DNA of 64,000 nt. Origin: a virus. Positions 2,022-57,622 of the stretch are shown piece by piece. Within the stretch, counting starts at the first letter, position 1, and every line of letters starts with the position of its first letter. The position numbers and the translations under genes were made by a program. Under the pieces are notes generated by a model. The model did no database searches. It was not told the origin of the DNA and saw only the letters and a list, made by a program, of their open reading frames with translations. The stretch covers positions 5,072-69,071 of the IMG/VR virus record IMGVR_UViG_3300043749_000038; one strand, given 5' to 3'.

Positions 2022-2103
2022 CGTACAAGTATCACCGTCTGACTAGGTCAACGACTATTTCACTTCTGCGGCTAGGCCGTTAATTCATCCTAAGGGGATA
2101 AAA

Positions 2104-2877
2104 ATGCATCCGAAATATTACACTGCTCCGAAACTCACACCGTTCATGCTGTTCGCCCGTGAAGGCGAAGGCGGTGGCGGCGGGGAAGCCGAGGCAGCGA
2201 TCCAGAAACGTATCGCGGATGCAGTGGCCGCAGAAGTGGCAGGTCTGAAAGCCAAGAACGACGAGCTGCTGGGCAAGAACAAAGCGTTGAGCGAATCGAA
2301 CAAACGCTTCGAAGGCATCGACGTCGAGAAGTACAACGCGTTCCAGCAACGCCTGGACACCGACGAAGACGCCCGTCTGATTTCCGAAGGAAAGACGACC
2401 GAGCTGGTTCAGAAGTACACCGAGCGCATGCGTAAGGAACACGAAACTCAACTCGCAGCAGTGCGGGCCGAGGTCGACGCTGAAAAAGTGCGCGGCAAGA
2501 AATACGAACAAGCGGTGCTGGACAACCAGATCCGCGCCGCATGTGTGGGCATGCACCCCAGCGCCATCGAGGATGCGCTGCTGCACGGTCGCACTGTGTT
2601 TTCGCTCGATGCCGAGGGCCGGGCGGTCAAAGCGGATGGCTCCGGCCGTCCGGAGCTTGGCAAAGACGGCCAGACTCCATTCAGCCCGGCTGAGTGGATC
2701 GAGTCGCAAAAAGAATCCAAACCGCACTGGTTCCCTGCATCCAGCAGCGGCTCGGGTTCGGCTGGTTCCAGCGGTGCTGGTGCCGGTGGCAAAACCATGT
2801 CTCGTTCGAAGTTCGACTCGTTGCCTGCAAGTGAAAAGGCAACTGTCGCGCGATCGGGCGTTAAAATCGTCGACTAA
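2104..2877 (+). CDS. Capsid scaffolding protein
   Basis: Coiled-coil, GLKAKNDELL motif, PHWFP then Gly/Ser-rich tail; immediately before the capsid gene. Confidence 0.8.
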   Translation: MHPKYYTAPKLTPFMLFAREGEGGGGGEAEAAIQKRIADAVAAEVAGLKAKNDELLGKNKALSESNKRFEGIDVEKYNAFQQRLDTDEDARLISEGKTTELVQKYTERMRKEHETQLAAVRAEVDAEKVRGKKYEQAVLDNQIRAACVGMHPSAIEDALLHGRTVFSLDAEGRAVKADGSGRPELGKDGQTPFSPAEWIESQKESKPHWFPASSSGSGSAGSSGAGAGGKTMSRSKFDSLPASEKATVARSGVKIVD

Positions 2878-4330: not shown

Positions 4331-6280
4331 ATGGCTAAGGGTGCACTTTCCACAAACCCGGTATCGACATACACGCTTCCGGCGGGTTGCGCGCCTTATG
4401 GTGTCGCTGCATCCCCCGACAGCAAGAACGTCTACGTCGTCACATCGGGATCGACTGCTGCAACAGCCGGTGTGATCCAGCTTGCGGTTAGTTCCGCCGA
4501 CGGCTCGCTCGGGCAGATCGGTACGCAGCCGCTGCTTGCGGCCACTTCCAACGGCCCGCGCCATGCGGTCGTGTCGCCGGACGGCAAGCACGTCTATGTG
4601 ACCGTCACGGGCTATGACAAGCTGTCGTATTTCGTGCGCAGCGCCACCGACGGTTCGCTCTCGGGGCTCACGTCCTATACGTCCGGTGTCTCCTACCCGA
4701 CGTACGTGGCGATCTCGGCCGATGGTGCGCACGTCTACCTCGTCAACAACAACAGTGGCGGTGCCAGCGGCAACGTCCAGGTCTACTCGCGCAATGCCAG
4801 CACCGGCGCGCTAACCCTGCTCCAGACGATTGCGCTTGTTGGCGCATTCGGCGTTGCAGCTACGAAGGACGGCAAGGCCGTCTATGTGTCGACCACAGCC
4901 AGCGGCGGTCAAGTCGTTGCCTACACCCGCGACGGCAACTCGGCGTCAGGTACGTACGGCCAGCTGACCGCTGTTGCATCGGGTGCGTACGCCACTGCTT
5001 CGGGCTTTCCGAACGCTGTCGGCATCTCGGACGACAGCGCATTCGTCTATGTGCTGAGCGACGCTGGTTCGCAGTACACGAGCTGCTATGCGCGCAACGC
5101 TGCTGACAACACGCTGACTCACGCGTCCACATGGTATCCGACGGTCGCCGCTGCTGACGCCAACGGTAACTGGGATATCGCACTGTCTGCAGATACGGGC
5201 AACACCTCGCTGTATTCCGCAATCAGCGATGGTCAGCGCATTGCGCAATTCACTCGTAATACCAGCACAGGCGTTCTGACGTCCAACGCAGCAGCGCCGT
5301 CGGTGTTCACGTCGAACTACAACGGCACGGCGCGTGGTAGCAACGGCCCGTACGGCCTCGCTGTCCTGCCGAACAATGCCTATCTGTATGCAGCGTCTTC
5401 CGCAGCCGCTAACACGGTCGACGTATTTACGATCGACCAAGGCGCAGTTGCTGACAGCACGCCGCCAACGTTCACCGGCACGATTGCCGCAACTTCGACC
5501 GGCAGCACGACCGAAACGCTCGACTGGAGCTCCACGACCCATACGGACAATGTGGGCATCACGTCTTACGACTACAGCCCGGACGGTACGAACTGGACCA
5601 ACACGGGCAGCACTGCAACGAGCGTCGGTCTGACCGGACTCGCGCCTTCCACGCAATACACGTATCAGGTTCGTGCCAAAGACGCGGCCGGCAATGTCTC
5701 CACCCCGGCCTTGTCCGTGACGTTCACCACTGCTGCGGGTGCAGACTCCGTCGCCCCTGTGATGCAAGGCTCGCTGTCGCTGAGCAACATCGGAAAGACC
5801 GGCGCCACGGTGAGCTGGTCCGCCGCAACCGACAACGTCGCGGTGACTGGTTACAAGGTGGACAGCGGCACCGGAGCCTACGTGGATGTGGGTAACGTGC
5901 TAACCACAAATGTTACGGGCAGAGCCGAACTGTCAAGTTCCGCAATTCGTGTGGTGGCATACGACGCAGCGGGTAACGTCTCGACGCCGCTGACCGCAAC
6001 CCTGAACACCATCGGCGCTTCGTACACTTTCGACACGATGAGCAATGGGTCAGGCGGTTACTGGGCAAATCAGGCCGTTGTCTGGAACTGGTGGCCGGGC
6101 GGACGCATCGGTTCGCTTGCCGGCATCACCCCTAAGCAGGGAACCGGCACCACGAATGCTTCCGGTGTGCTGACGCTCTCTGGCAACCTTCCGACCGGCG
6201 CAGGCCTGGCTCTGGTGGCAAAACAGAACACCGGCGCCACCGACGACGCTGTGTTTTATCAGGCTGGGACGGCGAACTAA
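4331..6280 (+). CDS. Putative head/neck fibre: beta-propeller plus two fibronectin type III domains
   Basis: Repeated SPDGKHVYV-type blades; two DxxxP...W...DNVxxTxY...VxAxDAAGNVS FN3 units. Confidence 0.7.
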   Translation: MAKGALSTNPVSTYTLPAGCAPYGVAASPDSKNVYVVTSGSTAATAGVIQLAVSSADGSLGQIGTQPLLAATSNGPRHAVVSPDGKHVYVTVTGYDKLSYFVRSATDGSLSGLTSYTSGVSYPTYVAISADGAHVYLVNNNSGGASGNVQVYSRNASTGALTLLQTIALVGAFGVAATKDGKAVYVSTTASGGQVVAYTRDGNSASGTYGQLTAVASGAYATASGFPNAVGISDDSAFVYVLSDAGSQYTSCYARNAADNTLTHASTWYPTVAAADANGNWDIALSADTGNTSLYSAISDGQRIAQFTRNTSTGVLTSNAAAPSVFTSNYNGTARGSNGPYGLAVLPNNAYLYAASSAAANTVDVFTIDQGAVADSTPPTFTGTIAATSTGSTTETLDWSSTTHTDNVGITSYDYSPDGTNWTNTGSTATSVGLTGLAPSTQYTYQVRAKDAAGNVSTPALSVTFTTAAGADSVAPVMQGSLSLSNIGKTGATVSWSAATDNVAVTGYKVDSGTGAYVDVGNVLTTNVTGRAELSSSAIRVVAYDAAGNVSTPLTATLNTIGASYTFDTMSNGSGGYWANQAVVWNWWPGGRIGSLAGITPKQGTGTTNASGVLTLSGNLPTGAGLALVAKQNTGATDDAVFYQAGTAN

Positions 6281-6490
6281 ATGTTACGCAACCTTAACGT
6301 ATCTACAGCCGGTTCGAGACTTCTGAGCAGCCCTGCTGTTCAGGGCCCTCCGCCGGTCACTATTGACGCAAGTCAGATTCCGAAGATTCGCTGGATCACG
6401 TTTGCTGGTAACAGCCGTGTTGTCAGCTTCGAAGGAACCGGCCGTGTTATCAGCTTTGATGGTACTAACCGTACCATCCCGTTTAACTAA
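6281..6490 (+). CDS. Hypothetical protein with 9-aa RxxxFxG repeats
   Basis: Abuts previous stop; RWITFAG/RVVSFEG/RVISFDG/RTIPF. Confidence 0.5.
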   Translation: MLRNLNVSTAGSRLLSSPAVQGPPPVTIDASQIPKIRWITFAGNSRVVSFEGTGRVISFDGTNRTIPFN

Positions 6491-6498
6491 GGACTATC

Positions 6499-6843
6499 AT
6501 GACGATCAACCGTAACCCGTATTACGACACCGCAAGGGATCGTTGGTATGTCGACAAAGACCCTGACAATCAGTGGACTTACGTTGCTGACATGACCTCC
6601 GAACTGACGCTGAACAACACCACGGCGTCGACTTGCACAGCAATTGTGAGCGATTCGCGCATTACGGTACTCGCTGGTCCGACCGTGCAGACTCCCGGCA
6701 ATTTGCTGATCAAAGTGAAGTTTTCTGGTCCGGTTGTCGGAAGCGGAACTTACACGGACGACGCGTTCATTACTCTGCGTACGGTATGCGCTAACGGGGA
6801 CCAGTTCGACAAGACCATTTGGGTCAAGCCCGTGCAGGACTAA
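6499..6843 (+). CDS. Putative fibre adaptor protein
   Basis: KDPDxxxxYxxD motif, beta-rich, AAGGA RBS. Confidence 0.5.
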   Translation: MTINRNPYYDTARDRWYVDKDPDNQWTYVADMTSELTLNNTTASTCTAIVSDSRITVLAGPTVQTPGNLLIKVKFSGPVVGSGTYTDDAFITLRTVCANGDQFDKTIWVKPVQD

Positions 6844-6844
6844 C

Positions 6845-7015
6845 ATGGACCAGATTGACGCCACCATGCTGGTTAAGATCCAGAAGGAGCGGTTGCTGAA
6901 AGAGCAAGCTGCTCCCGTAACTGCGCCCGCTCAAACTGTGCTCCCGCAGCCCAGCGCGGGGCCTTACCCATTGAAAGGCGTCGTCCCCAATTATCCTTTG
7001 AAGGGTAAAGTATGA
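6845..7015 (+). CDS. Hypothetical protein (56 aa)
   Basis: Fills gap between neighbours, ATGA overlap with next gene; duplicated YPLKG. Confidence 0.45.
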   Translation: MDQIDATMLVKIQKERLLKEQAAPVTAPAQTVLPQPSAGPYPLKGVVPNYPLKGKV

Positions 7016-7563
7016 GCCTCATCGTTGAAGACGGCAGTGTTGTGGCCGGTGCTGAGTCTTACGTCACTGTTGAAGACGCGGACTTGTACCACTACAACAG
7101 GGGCATGACGGCATGGACAGGCCTTGACGTAGCGAGCAAAGAACAGGCCCTCCGCCGTGCCACTGACTTCATGCTCGGTCGGTATCGCGGTCGTTGGAAG
7201 GGTGCTAAAACTCGCTATCAGCAAGCGTTGGACTGGCCGCGCGTCGGCGTGACGCCGGACGATGCGCAGAATCCATTCAGCACTCAAATCGGTTACGGGT
7301 ACGGTTATAAATACGTGATCCCTTATACCGTTGTTCCGAACGAGGTGAAGAACGCTTGTTGCGAACTGGCCTTGCGTGCTGCGTCTGGTCCGCTGCTTGC
7401 CGACCTTGAGCCGCGCATCTTAACCGAGACGGTTGGTCCGATCACGGTCAAGTACGACCCGAGCTCGCCTCAATACATCCGTTATGCGCAAGTCGACGCA
7501 ATTCTTTCACCGCTGCTTGCAAACGGCGGCGTGGGTGCGACTGTCAAACTGACACGCACTTAA
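7012..7563 (+). CDS. Head-tail adaptor (DnaT-like annotated family)
   Basis: MSLIVEDG...AESY, QALDWPR, VKNACCELA, ETVGPITVKY motifs. Confidence 0.8.
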   Translation: MSLIVEDGSVVAGAESYVTVEDADLYHYNRGMTAWTGLDVASKEQALRRATDFMLGRYRGRWKGAKTRYQQALDWPRVGVTPDDAQNPFSTQIGYGYGYKYVIPYTVVPNEVKNACCELALRAASGPLLADLEPRILTETVGPITVKYDPSSPQYIRYAQVDAILSPLLANGGVGATVKLTRT

Positions 7564-7569
7564 AAGAGC

Positions 7570-7598
7570 TTGCTTTGCCCAAACTTCCATGCTACCAT
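7570..7598 (+). promoter_or_regulatory. Sigma70-like promoter for neck/tail genes
   Basis: TTGCTT-17 bp-TACCAT in intergenic gap. Confidence 0.45.
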
Positions 7599-7622
7599 GC
7601 CTGTATTCTGTAAGGTGTGGGC

Positions 7623-8015
7623 ATGGACTATACTCGGATCGCGCAAGTTGTAGTAAAGCAGATCGCCAGCTACGGGCGAGATGTTACCTTGCGCCAGTTT
7701 CCGTACGGAGCAGCAACCTACGACCCTACCAGCTTGACCGTAAGCGCTCCAACGTCCCAGCCCGTTGAGACTGTCGTCAAGGGTCTTGTTACCGACCAGC
7801 CTGGTAAAAGGATCGGACCTCAGTACGGCACGAACATGAAGAAAGACACTCTGATCGAAGACGGTCAGAAGTGGATTTACATTGACGGCATGGGTCCGAG
7901 GCCTAAACCGAATGACAAAATTGTAATCGGCGACGTAGAGTACACAGTCGACGATGTGCAGGAAACTGCACCCGGCGACGTGGTTCTGTTCTATTTAGTA
8001 GTGCTGTACCGATGA
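7623..8015 (+). CDS. Head closure/stopper protein
   Basis: Position, size, YGRDVTLR and YDP motifs. Confidence 0.6.
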   Translation: MDYTRIAQVVVKQIASYGRDVTLRQFPYGAATYDPTSLTVSAPTSQPVETVVKGLVTDQPGKRIGPQYGTNMKKDTLIEDGQKWIYIDGMGPRPKPNDKIVIGDVEYTVDDVQETAPGDVVLFYLVVLYR

Positions 8016-8545
8016 GCAAGTACGGGATCAACACTGCGGCAATGGAAGGTATCTTTGCCTTCGTGAGCCGAAGCAAACAGGGGATTCACACTTGCACGAA
8101 GTATGCTCTGTTGGAGATCGGTGTACGGTTGCAGATGTATTCGGCTGTGGGCGATCCGAGTTTGTGGTCGAAAGAATCTGTGCGGAGGGCGTTGCATAAG
8201 AATTACGTACCGGGTTTATTCATCAACAATTGGCAACTTGGAGTTGACCAGTTCCCCACAGGGATGTTGACGAATACGCCTGACGCTAGTGCAAGCACGT
8301 CGACAAGGAGCTTGACAAAGATTCCTCGTTGGCCTGCTTATCACGACTATTACTTCGTGAACAATACGCCGTATGCTCAGAAGTTGGAGCTAGGCTACCA
8401 TTCGCACCAAGTGCCACCGGGGGGAATGGTTGGGCGCGTAAGGTTGGAGTTCCCACAGATTATTCAGGAAGCAATCGCGAAGTATCATTCTGGAGTTGGA
8501 GATGTCACAGGTAAAAATCAAGTCAGCTCTGCATACGGCGATTAA
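8012..8545 (+). CDS. Neck/tail completion protein (HK97 gp10-like)
   Basis: NNTPYAQKLELGYHSHQVPPGGMV motif. Confidence 0.7.
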   Translation: MSKYGINTAAMEGIFAFVSRSKQGIHTCTKYALLEIGVRLQMYSAVGDPSLWSKESVRRALHKNYVPGLFINNWQLGVDQFPTGMLTNTPDASASTSTRSLTKIPRWPAYHDYYFVNNTPYAQKLELGYHSHQVPPGGMVGRVRLEFPQIIQEAIAKYHSGVGDVTGKNQVSSAYGD

Positions 8546-8909
8546 CGCAATGTCGCCGTCTTTGCCGACGGCTTGGCCGAACGTGACGTTCGATCCTGAT
8601 AACAGAGTTCCGTGGCAGAAGGTTAATGTGGTATTCTCCCAACCGTCCGAACCTACGGTTGGGAGCGATTACTATCAAGAAATCGGCTTCCTGCAAGTGA
8701 CCTTGTATTACCCGCTCCTTCAGGGGGATGGGCCAGCTACGTCGAGGGCGGAGCTGATTCGCAATACCTTCAAAAAAGGGACGTCCGTTGTTAAGGACGA
8801 CGTAACGGTCCAGTTTAACAAAGTGGCACAAATCTTAGAAGGCGTACCGACAGACGAACAGTACATCGTCGTTGTTCGGGTTCCATTTTACGCTAATATT
8901 TACCTCTGA
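8502..8909 (+). CDS. Tail terminator protein
   Basis: AWPNVTFDP, GFLQVTLYYP motifs; precedes tail tube. Confidence 0.7.
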   Translation: MSQVKIKSALHTAINAMSPSLPTAWPNVTFDPDNRVPWQKVNVVFSQPSEPTVGSDYYQEIGFLQVTLYYPLLQGDGPATSRAELIRNTFKKGTSVVKDDVTVQFNKVAQILEGVPTDEQYIVVVRVPFYANIYL

Positions 8910-32074: not shown

Positions 32075-32162
32075 TGGCGGAAAGTGTAGGATTCGAACCT
32101 ACGGAGCCTTTCGACTCGTCTGGTTAGCAACCAGATGCATTAAACCACTCTGCCAACTTTCC
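32075..32162 (-). tRNA. tRNA-Ser(GCT)
   Basis: GGAAAGT acceptor, TCTGG-TTGCTAA-CCAGA anticodon arm, long variable arm, GTTCGAATC, G discriminator and encoded CCA. Confidence 0.92.
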
Positions 32163-36537: not shown

Positions 36538-36630
36538 ATTTATAGACGAACTTTAGAGGGACTCGAACCCTAGCACTTGCCGATTGCCTCGGCCGTTCTG
36601 CCAATTAAACTATAAAGTTCGTCTATAAAT
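36538..36630 (-). ncRNA. tRNA-like element with extended acceptor stem and short anticodon loop
   Basis: 18-bp perfect terminal inverted repeat enclosing D arm (GTTT-AATTGGCA-GAAC), GCCGA-GGCAA-TCGGC arm and AGGG-TTCGAGT-CCCT T arm; no CCA. Confidence 0.7.
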
Positions 36631-55572: not shown

Positions 55573-55605
55573 GTAGAACTCCGTAAAATTAGCGAAAGCA
55601 TGTAC

Positions 55606-55634
55606 ACTATACGCATGAAAATAAAAAATGTAAA
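55606..55634 (-). promoter_or_regulatory. Sigma70-like promoter
   Basis: TTTACA-17 bp-TATAGT on minus strand. Confidence 0.65.
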
Positions 55635-56705
55635 GTTATTTGCTGTTTGGTGGGAGGGTGCCCGAGGAATGGGGGTGTCCCCGCTAGTTTTGCAGCCCCC
55701 CAGAGTGTGAAAAGTAAGCTGTTTGTACGGGGGGTGGGGCCTATAGGGGCTACCCTGGCTACCAAACTCGCTTTTTAAACTTTTCACAATGTGTGTTTTT
55801 AAGTTTTTTTGTTAATTAATTTGGCTAATTTCTGTAGTTTAGCTATGTAAACCCGGTAAGAATCGGGTTAGTAACAGGTTTAATGCATCAAAATCACACA
55901 AACCACAGACCAGCAGCTCGCTTCAGCATGCAAGCCACACAAAAATGCGCGGCTCAAAGCGCACAACTGTATATCCACTCCATAGTGTGGGCATACAGTT
56001 GGAGCCTGGTGCAAAACCAAGCTCCTTAGCTCATCTCACAGCCTGAGTAGATTGTTCATGAGTATTCAGTCCTTATCGCTTATAACGTTCAATAATTGCT
56101 TCGGTCATCGTTACAACAGCCTGTTCGCCCATGCGCAGCAAATCTGCGAGGGTCTCAGGCTTGTAGCTGTGAGCTCCTGTCTCGTTAATGATGGTCAGCC
56201 CGTGGACTTTGTGGGTGCGGTACTCAACCGTCACCGCGCGAACCATAAAAGACAGCTCGTCGTCACGGAAACTAAAATCAATGTGCGTGCGGACCATACT
56301 TCCTCCTATGTGTGGTTATAAAGCCTGAGCAGACTACTCGTGAGCAGCCCAGGCGGGTGGGTTAAAGTAAAACAACACCGACACTGAACTTAATGACGGT
56401 GGACGCAGGGTCCCATTCGTAATGCGGAGCAGACAGCTTACCAGTCGCGACGCTGCGCGATTGGGAATAGTACAATTGCTCTGTGTCGGCGTCTAAGACT
56501 TCGGCGTACGTTGCCTTGTATTTGTTGATCTGCAGATTGCGCACAACGTTGACACTTGCTTCGAACAGGTTAGAACCGCGAGTGGTCTTGACCAACTCAG
56601 TCTTGTACCAATAACGCGTCATTAACTTCGGTGGTGCATCCTTGACCGAGCCAGTCTGCATCACAATTTTACCTTCCATAATTCACTCCATTTAATGTGG
56701 CACAT

Positions 56706-56759
56706 ACCACAGACGCCCAATTAAGGGCGTTTCGACCAATTAGGTCTCGTCAGTGTGGT
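56706..56759 (-). ncRNA. Type I hammerhead ribozyme
   Basis: ACCACA-CUGACGA-GACC(UAAUU)GGUC-GAAAC-GCCC(UUAAUU)GGGC-GUC-UGUGGU: full catalytic core and three stems. Confidence 0.9.
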
Positions 56760-56963
56760 TATAAAAGCTTGCTCATACGATCGCGAAGCTCATCCTCAAC
56801 GTTAATGGTGTCGAGTATCTTAAGCATGTCGTATTGGTTTAAGTCTTTACCGAACTCATGCTTTAAGACTTGCAAGAGCTCCATTGCGAACTTATCGAGC
56901 GTGTTGTTCACAACTGCGTCCAGCCGACTCATTGCGCTCATGAGTAATCTCCTCAAGGTTAAT

Positions 56964-56987
56964 AAAAAGCCCGCTGGTTAGGCGGGC
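56964..56987 (-). terminator. Rho-independent terminator
   Basis: GCCCGC-loop-GCGGGC-TTTTT on minus strand. Confidence 0.65.
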
Positions 56988-56995
56988 CGGGCGAA

Positions 56996-57622
56996 TCACT
57001 GTGCTGCCGGAGCAGGCTGTGTAGGCATGCTGGCCACCGGGATGAGCTGGGAGCGACCTTTGATGCCGTTGTACGAGCGCCACCGAGCGAACTGAGTTTT
57101 GATCGTGTGCTCGTTGACGTCCTTGAGATCCGGGTGCGCACGCACTTGGCTGATGAGCGCCGGGTGGCCGTTCTGGTCGTGGCTGATCTTGTCAGCGATT
57201 GCCCAGATTTGGCCGCACAGCGAATCTGGTGCCGGGCGGGTGATGCCGTTCTGCTGCTGCTTGTCCGCCTTGGGAGCACGAGCTTGCTTGGGCTGGCCAA
57301 GGACGACCGAAGGGTTGATGCCGAGTGTTGCTGCGAGTTGTTCAACTTGCTTCTTGAACTCGAGCTCTTTCTTCTGCTCTTCGGTCAGCTCCGGTTCCTT
57401 GTGCACTGCCGGCGTGGTTTGGGTCGTCGGTGCGAACTGCTGGCGACGATCGTGGTCCGCCTGGCGGCGTTCAGCCTTGCGCTGCTCTTCGTCGACTGCG
57501 TGTTCCTCTTTCGGAGTCTCGAGGTTCTTGCCTTTCGGGCCTTCGACGGTGCCTTGAGCGACTTTGTGCACACGCGGAGCACGTTTTGCAGCAGCTTTCG
57601 GGGCGGTTTGAGTAGTTGCCAT
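56996..57622 (-). CDS. Putative DNA-binding protein (paralog 3)
   Basis: NGITRP...QIWAIAD...NEHTIKTQFARW. Confidence 0.7.
   Translation of the reverse strand: MATTQTAPKAAAKRAPRVHKVAQGTVEGPKGKNLETPKEEHAVDEEQRKAERRQADHDRRQQFAPTTQTTPAVHKEPELTEEQKKELEFKKQVEQLAATLGINPSVVLGQPKQARAPKADKQQQNGITRPAPDSLCGQIWAIADKISHDQNGHPALISQVRAHPDLKDVNEHTIKTQFARWRSYNGIKGRSQLIPVASMPTQPAPAAQ

What the first reader, a model, noticed from the sequence alone, without database searches (positions are those of the whole stretch)
56696..56761. Hammerhead ribozyme wedged between two early genes
Seen: exact core CUGACGA / GAAA / GUC with G10.1-C11.1. Stem I overlaps the stop codon of 56759-56956, and predicted cleavage is between 56712 and 56711. 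The released 3' product begins UGUGGU-AUGU-GCCACA, a new 5' hairpin just upstream of the GGAG RBS of 56362-56679. Loops II and III (UAAUU, UUAAUU) are mutually complementary, and stem I is built from the TGTGG motif. Known: hammerheads occur in some phage intergenic regions, with function mostly unclear. Inference: protein-free processing of the early polycistronic mRNA.
Basis: partly seen in the sequence, partly recalled or inferred. Interest (0 to 1): 0.82.

Follow-up and report, generated by a model that had tools for sequence, protein, structure and literature searches.

The report
Type I hammerhead ribozyme between phage genes
A textbook self-cleaving hammerhead RNA sits between two small genes of an uncultured soil phage, one more example of a common, already described phage feature thought to cut long messenger RNAs into single-gene pieces.

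Summary
On the minus strand, 56759-56706 encodes a complete type I hammerhead. It has the CUGACGA and GAAA core, A15.1-U16.1, C17, a 6-bp stem I, a 4-bp stem II and a 6-bp stem III (A15.1-U16.1 included). Predicted cleavage is at 56712|56711.

It is not chance. A descriptor scan finds one site in the window and any site in only 1 of 300 shuffles. A covariance model built from 99 other phage hammerheads, without this one, scores it 62.5 bits, E about 2e-16. It is the only hit in the 64-kb window; the remaining 5.1 kb gave none.

It belongs to an abundant IMG/VR phage class with a 6-bp stem I, a U-N-A-N-U loop II, an upstream stop codon in or next to stem I, and about 30 nt to the next start codon. 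Rfam's gathering cut-off misses this class: 30.4 bits against 34.

The element is lineage-specific. It is absent from 5 related cultured phages, from 11 loci holding homologues of the downstream gene, and from the 7 of their whole records searched.

mRNA processing is the published hypothesis (PMC3088659) and fits, but it is untested here. The loop II/III complementarity looks like chance. The 5' hairpin on the 3' product is real but not a class trait. Verdict: a new member of a known kind, of modest interest.

The parts
56968..56988 (-). Terminator-like GC-rich hairpin followed by a T-run, between the 208-aa gene and the 60-aa gene
   Evidence: Consensus scan; sequence read. Consensus match only, function not shown.
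56759..56941 (-). Upstream ORF, 60 aa from ATG 56941 (GAGGAG 8 nt upstream), stop TAA 56761-56759
   Evidence: No Pfam or PHROG family. One homologue cluster, 83% identity.
56754..56759 (-). Hammerhead stem I, 5' strand ACCACA; overlaps the last base of the stop codon
56747..56753 (-). Catalytic core C3-A9 (CUGACGA)
56734..56746 (-). Stem-loop II: GACC / UAAUU / GGUC
   Evidence: The identical 13-mer occurs in IMG/VR hammerheads L002-L004.
56731..56733 (-). Core G12 A13 A14
56713..56730 (-). Stem-loop III: A15.1 + CGCCC / UUAAUU / GGGCG + U16.1
56711..56712 (-). C17 (56712) and the predicted scissile bond 56712|56711
   Evidence: The canonical hammerhead site is 3' of H17. Position follows from the alignments to RF00163 and to R1. 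Cleavage itself was not tested.
56706..56711 (-). Stem I, 3' strand UGUGGU
56696..56711 (-). Alternative hairpin UGUGGU-AUGU-GCCACA, which competes with stem I and forms the 5' end of the 3' product
   Evidence: The hammerhead fold is -23.2 and the hairpin fold -24.4 kcal/mol on the 86-nt RNA. The hammerhead fold is the minimum-energy fold until 56696 is transcribed.
56362..56689 (-). GGAG (56689-86) and the downstream ORF of 105 aa (ATG 56679). The 5' UTR after cleavage would be 32 nt.
   Evidence: Conserved protein family of unknown function.

Best explanation
Minus strand 56759-56706 encodes a genuine type I hammerhead self-cleaving ribozyme. It belongs to an abundant class of phage hammerheads wedged between cistrons. 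When the 60-aa gene and the 105-aa gene are transcribed as one RNA, the ribozyme should fold as soon as UGUGGU (56711-06) emerges and cut after C17 (56712). The upstream mRNA would keep its stop codon and end in the compact stem II/III structure with a 2',3'-cyclic phosphate and a 1-nt overhang, much like a terminator hairpin. The downstream mRNA would start with a 5'-OH at U56711, fold its first 16 nt into the UGUGGU-AUGU-GCCACA hairpin, and leave GGAG and the AUG free 32 nt downstream. The net effect would be to uncouple the stability and translation of two neighbouring cistrons without a protein nuclease. Shown here: the motif, its statistical significance, class membership and the class-typical gene context. 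Inferred: cleavage in vivo, the fates of the two products, and any benefit to the phage. My odds are about 0.9 that it is a real, cleavage-competent hammerhead and about 0.6 that cistron separation is its role.
For: All core positions and the three core-adjacent pairs required by the published criteria are present (sequence; criteria quoted from PMC3088659). RF00163 aligns end to end at 30.4 bits, E 1.2e-5 on 451 nt, 1.8e-3 on the window and 4.4e-7 in the genome search. My descriptor finds 1 site in the window, and 1 of 300 shuffles holds any site. Of 146 pattern matches, own locus included, 133 also have a stem III of 3 or more pairs and a stem I of 4 or more. On 99 distinct class sequences, 99.2% of cells are paired against 66.7% in shuffles and 24.5-35.5% when partners are slid. 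All 9 pairs not fixed by the pattern show changes on both sides. Model R1, built without the window, scores the site 62.5 bits, E 2.4e-16, the only hit at E<=10 in 64 kb. L002-L004 share the identical stem-loop II but have different, still complementary, stems I and III. Class context: 111 of 124 members have an upstream open frame ending between -45 and the cut, most often at -10 to -6 (the window is at -8). 88 of 120 have an SD plus start plus ORF of 40 aa or more within 200 nt, at a median of 29.5 nt (the window is at 32); the opposite-strand control gives 15 of 123. The hammerhead fold is the minimum-energy fold of the nascent RNA ending at 56706-56704 (at 56700 an extended version is), and GGAG and the AUG are unpaired in the 3' product. 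The literature reports phage and prophage hammerheads flanking single genes, cleavage of about 2-kb native transcripts in vitro, in vivo cleavage in E. coli, and a haloarchaeal virus transcript 5' end mapped within 3 nt of a hammerhead cut site (PMC3088659).
Against: The Rfam score is below the curated gathering score (30.4 against 34). No RNA run holds the region, so transcription on the minus strand rests on gene orientation only. The element is not conserved at this locus type. There is no hammerhead in 5 cultured relatives with about 50% primase identity. There is none within 2.5 kb of 11 distinct homologues of the downstream gene. There is none in 7 whole phage records that carry that gene (the same search did ring in 3 positive-control records). 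So there is no evidence of purifying selection at this site. A terminator-like hairpin about 200 nt upstream (56988-56968) could limit read-through into the ribozyme. The competing hairpin is 1.2 kcal/mol more stable than the hammerhead fold in the nearest-neighbour model and could lower the active fraction. Loop III (UUAAUU) is atypical for the class, where GNRA and UUCG tetraloops dominate.
Confidence: 0.7

Rival explanations
1. It is a real hammerhead fold but a neutral or selfish passenger. On this view it is a recently acquired or decaying element that came in with a gene cassette and gives the phage no regulatory benefit. Cleavage may be weak because the alternative hairpin and the lack of a proven stem I/loop II contact hold it back.
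For: Patchy distribution: 0 of 5 cultured relatives, 0 of 11 homologue loci and 0 of 7 whole records. In L002/L003 against L004, the hammerhead plus the downstream gene form one near-identical block joined to unrelated upstream DNA, so these elements move as cassettes. The flanking genes here are not syntenic with any fetched homologue locus. The hairpin fold is slightly more stable than the hammerhead fold.
Against: Every core nucleotide and all three helices are intact, which decay would not preserve. The spacing to the stop and start codons matches the class norm. A passenger origin does not exclude a processing effect once the element is present.
Confidence: 0.17
2. It is a gated switch rather than a constitutive cutter. 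UGUGGU can pair either with ACCACA (active ribozyme) or with GCCACA (hairpin), and a ribosome terminating at the stop codon that abuts stem I would melt stem I. Cleavage would then depend on folding kinetics or on translation of the upstream ORF.
For: The two folds are near-isoenergetic: -23.2 against -24.4 kcal/mol, with the hammerhead fold favoured only until 56696 is made. The stop codon overlaps stem I by one base. Stops in or next to stem I are the class norm.
Against: Only 10 of 129 class members have a comparable 3'-product hairpin, so it is not a conserved design. No ligand or protein partner is indicated. The energy difference is within the error of the model.
Confidence: 0.1
3. It is a chance match to the hammerhead consensus, or a structured RNA such as a 3' stabiliser or attenuator that does not cleave.
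For: The score is below Rfam's gathering threshold. Loose core patterns occur by chance: 13 matches in the window against 6.5 expected.
Against: With helices required, 1 of 300 shuffles holds any site and none is as good. E is 2.4e-16 with an independent class model. Class members generally score 25-30 bits against RF00163, so the cut-off, not the motif, is the issue.
Confidence: 0.03

Closest known systems
Hammerhead ribozyme, type I topology (Rfam RF00163, clan CL00010)
   Same: Full consensus core, three helices, open stem I with capped stems II and III, and an end-to-end alignment to the model.
   Different: It scores 30.4 bits, under the gathering score of 34. Stem I is a bare 6-bp helix with no internal loop. 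A tertiary contact with loop II is unproven.
Phage and prophage intergenic hammerheads flanking single genes (Perreault et al. 2011, PMC3088659; passages read)
   Same: Intergenic position on the coding strand between small genes of unknown function, and the same proposed role in processing long phage transcripts. The IMG/VR class found here shows the same arrangement, with arrays of up to 9 copies in 4.3 kb.
   Different: This phage has a single copy, not an array. I could not see that paper's Dataset S1 because supplements are closed, so I cannot say whether this exact subclass (6-bp stem I, U-N-A-N-U loop II) is listed there.
HHphage of haloarchaeal viruses HF1/HF2 (described in PMC3088659)
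   Same: A hammerhead a few tens of nucleotides upstream of a start codon in a presumed early polycistronic transcript. There, the mapped 5' end lies within 3 nt of the cut site.
   Different: HHphage is a core variant that needs high Mg2+ and lies 13 nt from the start. The element here has a canonical core and lies 32 nt from the start. No end mapping exists here.
RAGATH-1 hammerhead (Rfam RF03152)
   Same: Weak alignment of the core and of stems I and III (29.3 bits).
   Different: The gathering score is 56.3. The upstream hairpin of the family is absent: 0 nt where the consensus has 13. It is not a member.
RiboJ-type synthetic ribozyme insulators (recalled from memory; only lists papers that use RiboJ, none was read)
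   Same: It works alike on paper: self-cleavage removes the upstream context and leaves a defined 5' end with a hairpin ahead of an exposed ribosome-binding site.
   Different: As I recall, RiboJ is an engineered type III ribozyme that stays on the downstream RNA. Here almost the whole ribozyme stays on the upstream RNA. This is an analogy of mechanism only, not membership.

Membership tests
Hammerhead ribozyme | Conserved core C3 U4 G5 A6 N7 G8 A9, G12 A13 A14, A15.1, U16.1, H17 | tested here: met
   CUGACGA 56753-47, GAA 56733-31, A 56730, U 56713, C 56712. The criteria are as quoted from PMC3088659.
Hammerhead ribozyme | Three helices around the core with standard pairs next to it (10.1-11.1, 1.1-2.1, 15.1-16.1) | tested here: met
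   G-C, U-A and A-U. Stems are 6, 4 and 6 pairs.
Hammerhead ribozyme, type I | Stem I open; stems II and III closed by loops | tested here: met
   The order is stem I 5' strand, core, hairpin II, GAAA, hairpin III, UC, stem I 3' strand.
Rfam RF00163 Hammerhead_1 | Score at or above the curated gathering score (34 bits) | tested here: not met
   30.4 bits. In 16 loci that hold 28 class members, no hammerhead passed any Rfam gathering score. In 7 loci holding 17 members, 7 were reported as RF00163 at 25.1-30.2 bits. This is a curation threshold, not a structural feature.
   62.5 bits, E 2.4e-16, full length 1-56, the only hit in the window.
   All 9 of the 9 pairs not fixed by the search pattern change on both sides, and 99.2% of cells are paired. 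Caveat: members were pre-filtered for 4 or more stem I pairs and 3 or more stem III pairs, a filter that 133 of 146 passed. Orthologues of this very locus were not available.
   The window has a 6-bp stem I, A at -7, A at +7, UAAUU, stop at -8 and leader of 32 nt. In the class, stem I is 6 bp in 95 of 129, A at -7 in 70 of 95, A at +7 in 68 of 95, and loop II is 5 nt in 60 of 129.
Hammerhead ribozyme | Tertiary contact between stem I and loop II needed for fast cleavage at physiological Mg2+ | tested here: inconclusive
   In 60 members, loop II U1/U5 and the flanking A(-7)/A(+7) co-occur (95-100% compatible; permutation p <= 0.01 among 150 tests). This may reflect subclass structure rather than a contact.
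Hammerhead ribozyme | Site-specific self-cleavage giving a 2',3'-cyclic phosphate and a 5'-OH | not testable with these tools
   No RNA run holds the region. Needs a bench assay.
RAGATH-1 hammerhead (RF03152) | Gathering score of 56.3 bits and the extra upstream hairpin | tested here: not met
   29.3 bits, with the hairpin insertion empty.

The most novel reading that the evidence does not exclude
The ribozyme is a two-state device. UGUGGU toggles between the upstream ACCACA (cutting form) and the downstream GCCACA (hairpin form), and both partners are copies of the phage's recurrent leader motif AACCACA(C). Because the stop codon of the upstream ORF touches stem I, ribosome traffic on that ORF, or a factor that recognises the CCACA leader motif, would set the cleavage rate. 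That would in turn set the expression of the conserved 105-aa gene. This would be a natural translation- or factor-gated hammerhead.
Probability: 0.1. Interest if true: 0.55.

Novelty: new member of a known kind. Interest (0 to 1): 0.3.

Why it matters
It adds one clean, canonical example to the large set of phage hammerheads whose biological role is still described as largely elusive (PMC6765202). Two practical points follow. First, Rfam's gathering threshold misses this whole phage class: none of 28 copies in 16 loci was flagged, so routine annotation under-reports ribozymes in phage genomes. Second, this copy is single, has a canonical core and sits between two defined small ORFs. One of them belongs to a conserved family that elsewhere lacks the ribozyme. 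That makes a tidy natural with/without comparison for testing what cleavage does to the expression of neighbouring genes.

Tried and rejected
Searches that found nothing:
- RNA evidence: the look-up of sequencing runs listed one DNA holder, possibly the source sample, and no RNA holder.
- blastn of 56300-57100 against cultured phages gave no match.
- Single-protein locus searches for the 105-aa and 208-aa proteins in IMG/VR found no relatives, nor did the 105-aa protein in JGI metagenomes. tblastn of the 105-aa protein against cultured phages found none.
- The profile-based search then found 4 metagenome loci and 9 viral loci, 11 of them distinct, and none has a hammerhead.
- tblastn of eight window proteins against those loci found only the 105-aa gene shared, so there is no synteny to exploit.
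- The 60-aa protein has one homologue cluster (83% identity, Logan contigs only). Orthologous-locus covariation therefore could not be tested.
- RF00163 and R1 searches of five Nipunavirus-like and related phage records gave nothing significant; one 12-bit hit at E 0.48 was dismissed.
- The genome-contig scan for hammerheads with the same stem I gave 2 unrelated MAG hits, with no host clue.

Ideas rejected:
- Loop II/III kissing. The match is a 4-nt AAUU palindrome, and a run of 4 or more is seen in only 5 of 129 class members. From recalled crystal-structure knowledge, stems II and III stack coaxially and point apart.
- RAGATH-1 membership.
- The Trp_leader sub-threshold hit at 56961-57091 (26.5 bits, E 0.39). 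I take it to be the terminator-like hairpin.
- Homology between the downstream proteins of the window and of L003: no BLASTP alignment.
- The hairpin after the 105-aa gene is not better than shuffles (z -0.38).
- The analysis of loop II against the stem I flanks is only suggestive.

Supplements of PMC3088659 (Dataset S1, Figures S1-S8) were not visible and may already list this subclass.

Full report
**What is there.** The window is bases 5072-69071 of a 69,071-bp IMG/VR virus record with direct terminal repeats, rated complete. Its only listed sequencing-run holder is a soil metagenome. It is a siphovirus-type phage: it has a 2108-aa tape-measure protein, and its primase/helicase is about 50% identical to those of Nipunavirus (Queuovirinae) and related phages of Pseudomonas, Xanthomonas, Variovorax and Sphingomonas.

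On the minus strand, the sequence from 56761 to 56696 reads as follows:
- stop codon UAA
- ACCACA
- CUGACGA
- GACC-UAAUU-GGUC
- GAAA
- CGCCC-UUAAUU-GGGCG
- UC
- UGUGGU
- AUGU-GCCACA

This is a complete type I hammerhead.

**Is it more than chance?** Loose core patterns are common: 13 matches against 6.5 expected. Once the three helices are required, the window holds exactly one site, and only 1 of 300 dinucleotide shuffles holds any site, none as good. Rfam's type I model aligns end to end at 30.4 bits. The E-value is 1.2e-5 on 451 nt, 1.8e-3 on the whole window and 4.4e-7 in the genome search. That score is under the curated gathering score of 34, which is why the default scan shows only two tRNAs.

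**Relatives and covariation.** The 25-nt stretch of stem-loop II plus adjoining core occurs exactly in three IMG/VR contigs. There stem I is GCAUAA/UUAUGC and stem III is CCAAC-GCGA-GUUGG: different sequences, same pairing.

Of 146 pattern matches, own locus included, 133 also had at least 3 stem III pairs and at least 4 stem I pairs, neither of which the pattern demands.

I aligned 99 distinct members. They were chosen from the 129 non-redundant ones by three criteria: hairpin II of 13 nt or less, hairpin III of 18 nt or less, and 8-nt flanks available. On this alignment 99.2% of pair cells are standard pairs, against 66.7% after shuffling and 24.5-35.5% when partners are slid. All nine pairs not fixed by the pattern change on both sides. 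The pre-filter biases the proximal pairs slightly, but it removed only 13 of 146.

A covariance model built from these 99, without the window, scores the window's site 62.5 bits with E about 2.4e-16. It is the only hit at E<=10 in 64 kb. The remaining 5.1 kb of the genome has none.

**The class and its blind spot.** Class traits:
- Stem I is exactly 6 bp in 95 of 129 members.
- There is an A at -7 in 70 of 95, and A at +7/+8 in 68 and 69 of 95.
- Loop II is 5 nt in 60 of 129, mostly U-N-A-N-U.
- Loop III is mostly a GNRA or UUCG tetraloop.
- H17 is C in 125 of 129.

The window matches on all of these except +8 (U here) and loop III. Rfam misses the class. In 16 loci holding 28 members, no hammerhead reached a gathering score. 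In 7 loci holding 17 members, seven were reported as RF00163 at 25.1-30.2 bits. The window's sub-threshold score is therefore typical of the class, not a sign of weakness.

**Gene context.** In the class, 111 of 124 members have an upstream open frame ending between -45 and the cut, most often 10 to 6 nt before CUGA (the window is at -8). 88 of 120 have a Shine-Dalgarno plus start plus ORF of 40 aa or more within 200 nt of the cut, at a median of 29.5 nt (the window is at 32). The same test on the opposite strand gives 15 of 123. Some phages carry arrays, with 5 and 9 copies a few hundred nucleotides apart. This is the arrangement described by Perreault et al. 2011, who proposed processing of long phage transcripts into single-gene mRNAs and showed cleavage of native about 2-kb transcripts in vitro and in E. 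coli (PMC3088659, passages). Later reviews still call the role unresolved (PMC6155905; PMC6765202).

**Distribution.** The element is single-copy and lineage-specific. Five cultured relatives have none.

The downstream 105-aa protein belongs to a well-conserved family of unknown function, with 19 homologues at 59-79% identity. Eleven distinct loci with homologues show no hammerhead within 2.5 kb, the best hit being 10.3 bits at E 2.2. Seven whole records that carry the gene have none, while three control records gave 2, 5 and 9 hits. No neighbouring gene is shared with those loci.

In L002/L003 against L004, the hammerhead and its downstream gene form one near-identical block joined to unrelated upstream DNA, so such ribozymes travel in cassettes. 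Here, a second CCACA lies 7 nt upstream of GGAG. The phage's leader motif AACCACA occurs 30 times against 9 expected, and 10 of the 30 copies lie within 40 nt upstream of a start, against a background of 9%. The ribozyme therefore looks inserted between two copies of that motif.

- The 3'-product hairpin is real (-7.0 kcal/mol) but is found in comparable form in only 10 of 129 members.
- On the 86-nt RNA the hammerhead fold (-23.2) and the hairpin fold (-24.4 kcal/mol) are nearly equal. The hammerhead fold is the minimum-energy fold until 56696 has been transcribed.
- The loop II/III complementarity is a 4-nt palindrome and is not a class feature: 5 of 129 members have a run of 4 or more.
- 'Early genes' is unverified.
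- A terminator-like hairpin at 56988-56968 lies upstream of the 60-aa gene. Another at 55965-55946 closes a three-gene unit.

**Mechanism, with odds.** It is most likely (about 0.9) a cleavage-competent hammerhead. Its most likely role (about 0.6) is to separate two cistrons at the RNA level. The upstream mRNA would keep its stop codon and gain a structured, cyclic-phosphate 3' end. The downstream mRNA would gain a 5'-OH and a hairpin-capped 32-nt leader with a free ribosome-binding site. The hairpin would also hold the 3' product away from religation. These fates are inferred, not shown. The rivals are a neutral passenger, a gated switch, and chance.

Noticed in passing
window, both strands; e.g. 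56765-56753 and 56322-56310 (minus): AACCACA occurs 30 times against 9.05 expected (0 of 100 shuffles reach 30). 10 of the 30 copies lie within 40 nt upstream of an SD plus start ORF, against a background of 9%. The 13-mer TTTATAACCACAC is exact twice on the minus strand. This may be a leader, translation or regulatory motif of the phage.
   Followed up: partly
window 55573-56072 (minus strand): About 500 nt without an ORF, between the 74-aa and 325-aa genes. It holds terminator-like hairpins (55965-55946, 55921-55898), an AT-rich stretch and a promoter-like TTTACA-17-TATAGT (55634-55606). It is probably a transcription unit boundary.
   Followed up: no
window 56362-56679 (minus): The 105-aa protein downstream of the ribozyme belongs to a strongly conserved family of unknown function. 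It has 30 invariant columns among 20 sequences and no Pfam or PHROG match, and it is found on phage contigs of 58-190 kb.
   Followed up: partly
window 56996-57622 (minus): The C-terminal 80 residues of the 208-aa protein match PHROGs 11298 and 18634, and proteins of Nipunavirus and of about 60-kb Escherichia siphophages. Some of these are annotated as 'transcriptional activator FtrA domain-containing'.
   Followed up: no
L069 555-607 (minus) and 2044-2109 (minus): An IMG/VR contig with a class hammerhead also carries a twister-P5 ribozyme (59.7 bits, over its gathering score) and a sub-threshold twister-P1 (47.5 bits). This fits the known co-occurrence of ribozyme classes.
   Followed up: no
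G008 (record of L020) 4446-8720: Nine class hammerheads lie on one strand within 4.3 kb, spaced about 240-900 nt apart. This is an extreme array.
   Followed up: no
16 IMG/VR loci: Rfam gathering thresholds flagged none of 28 phage type I hammerheads. This is an annotation blind spot for the class.
   Followed up: partly
window 32075-32162 and 36547-36620 (minus): Two phage tRNA genes, Ser(gct) and Cys(gca), lie among the replication genes.
   Followed up: no
L003 1698-2021: The gene that travels with the L002-L004 hammerhead matches Pfam PF23790 (Kyanoviridae Gp96, E 1.1e-12). It is unrelated to the window's downstream gene.
   Followed up: no
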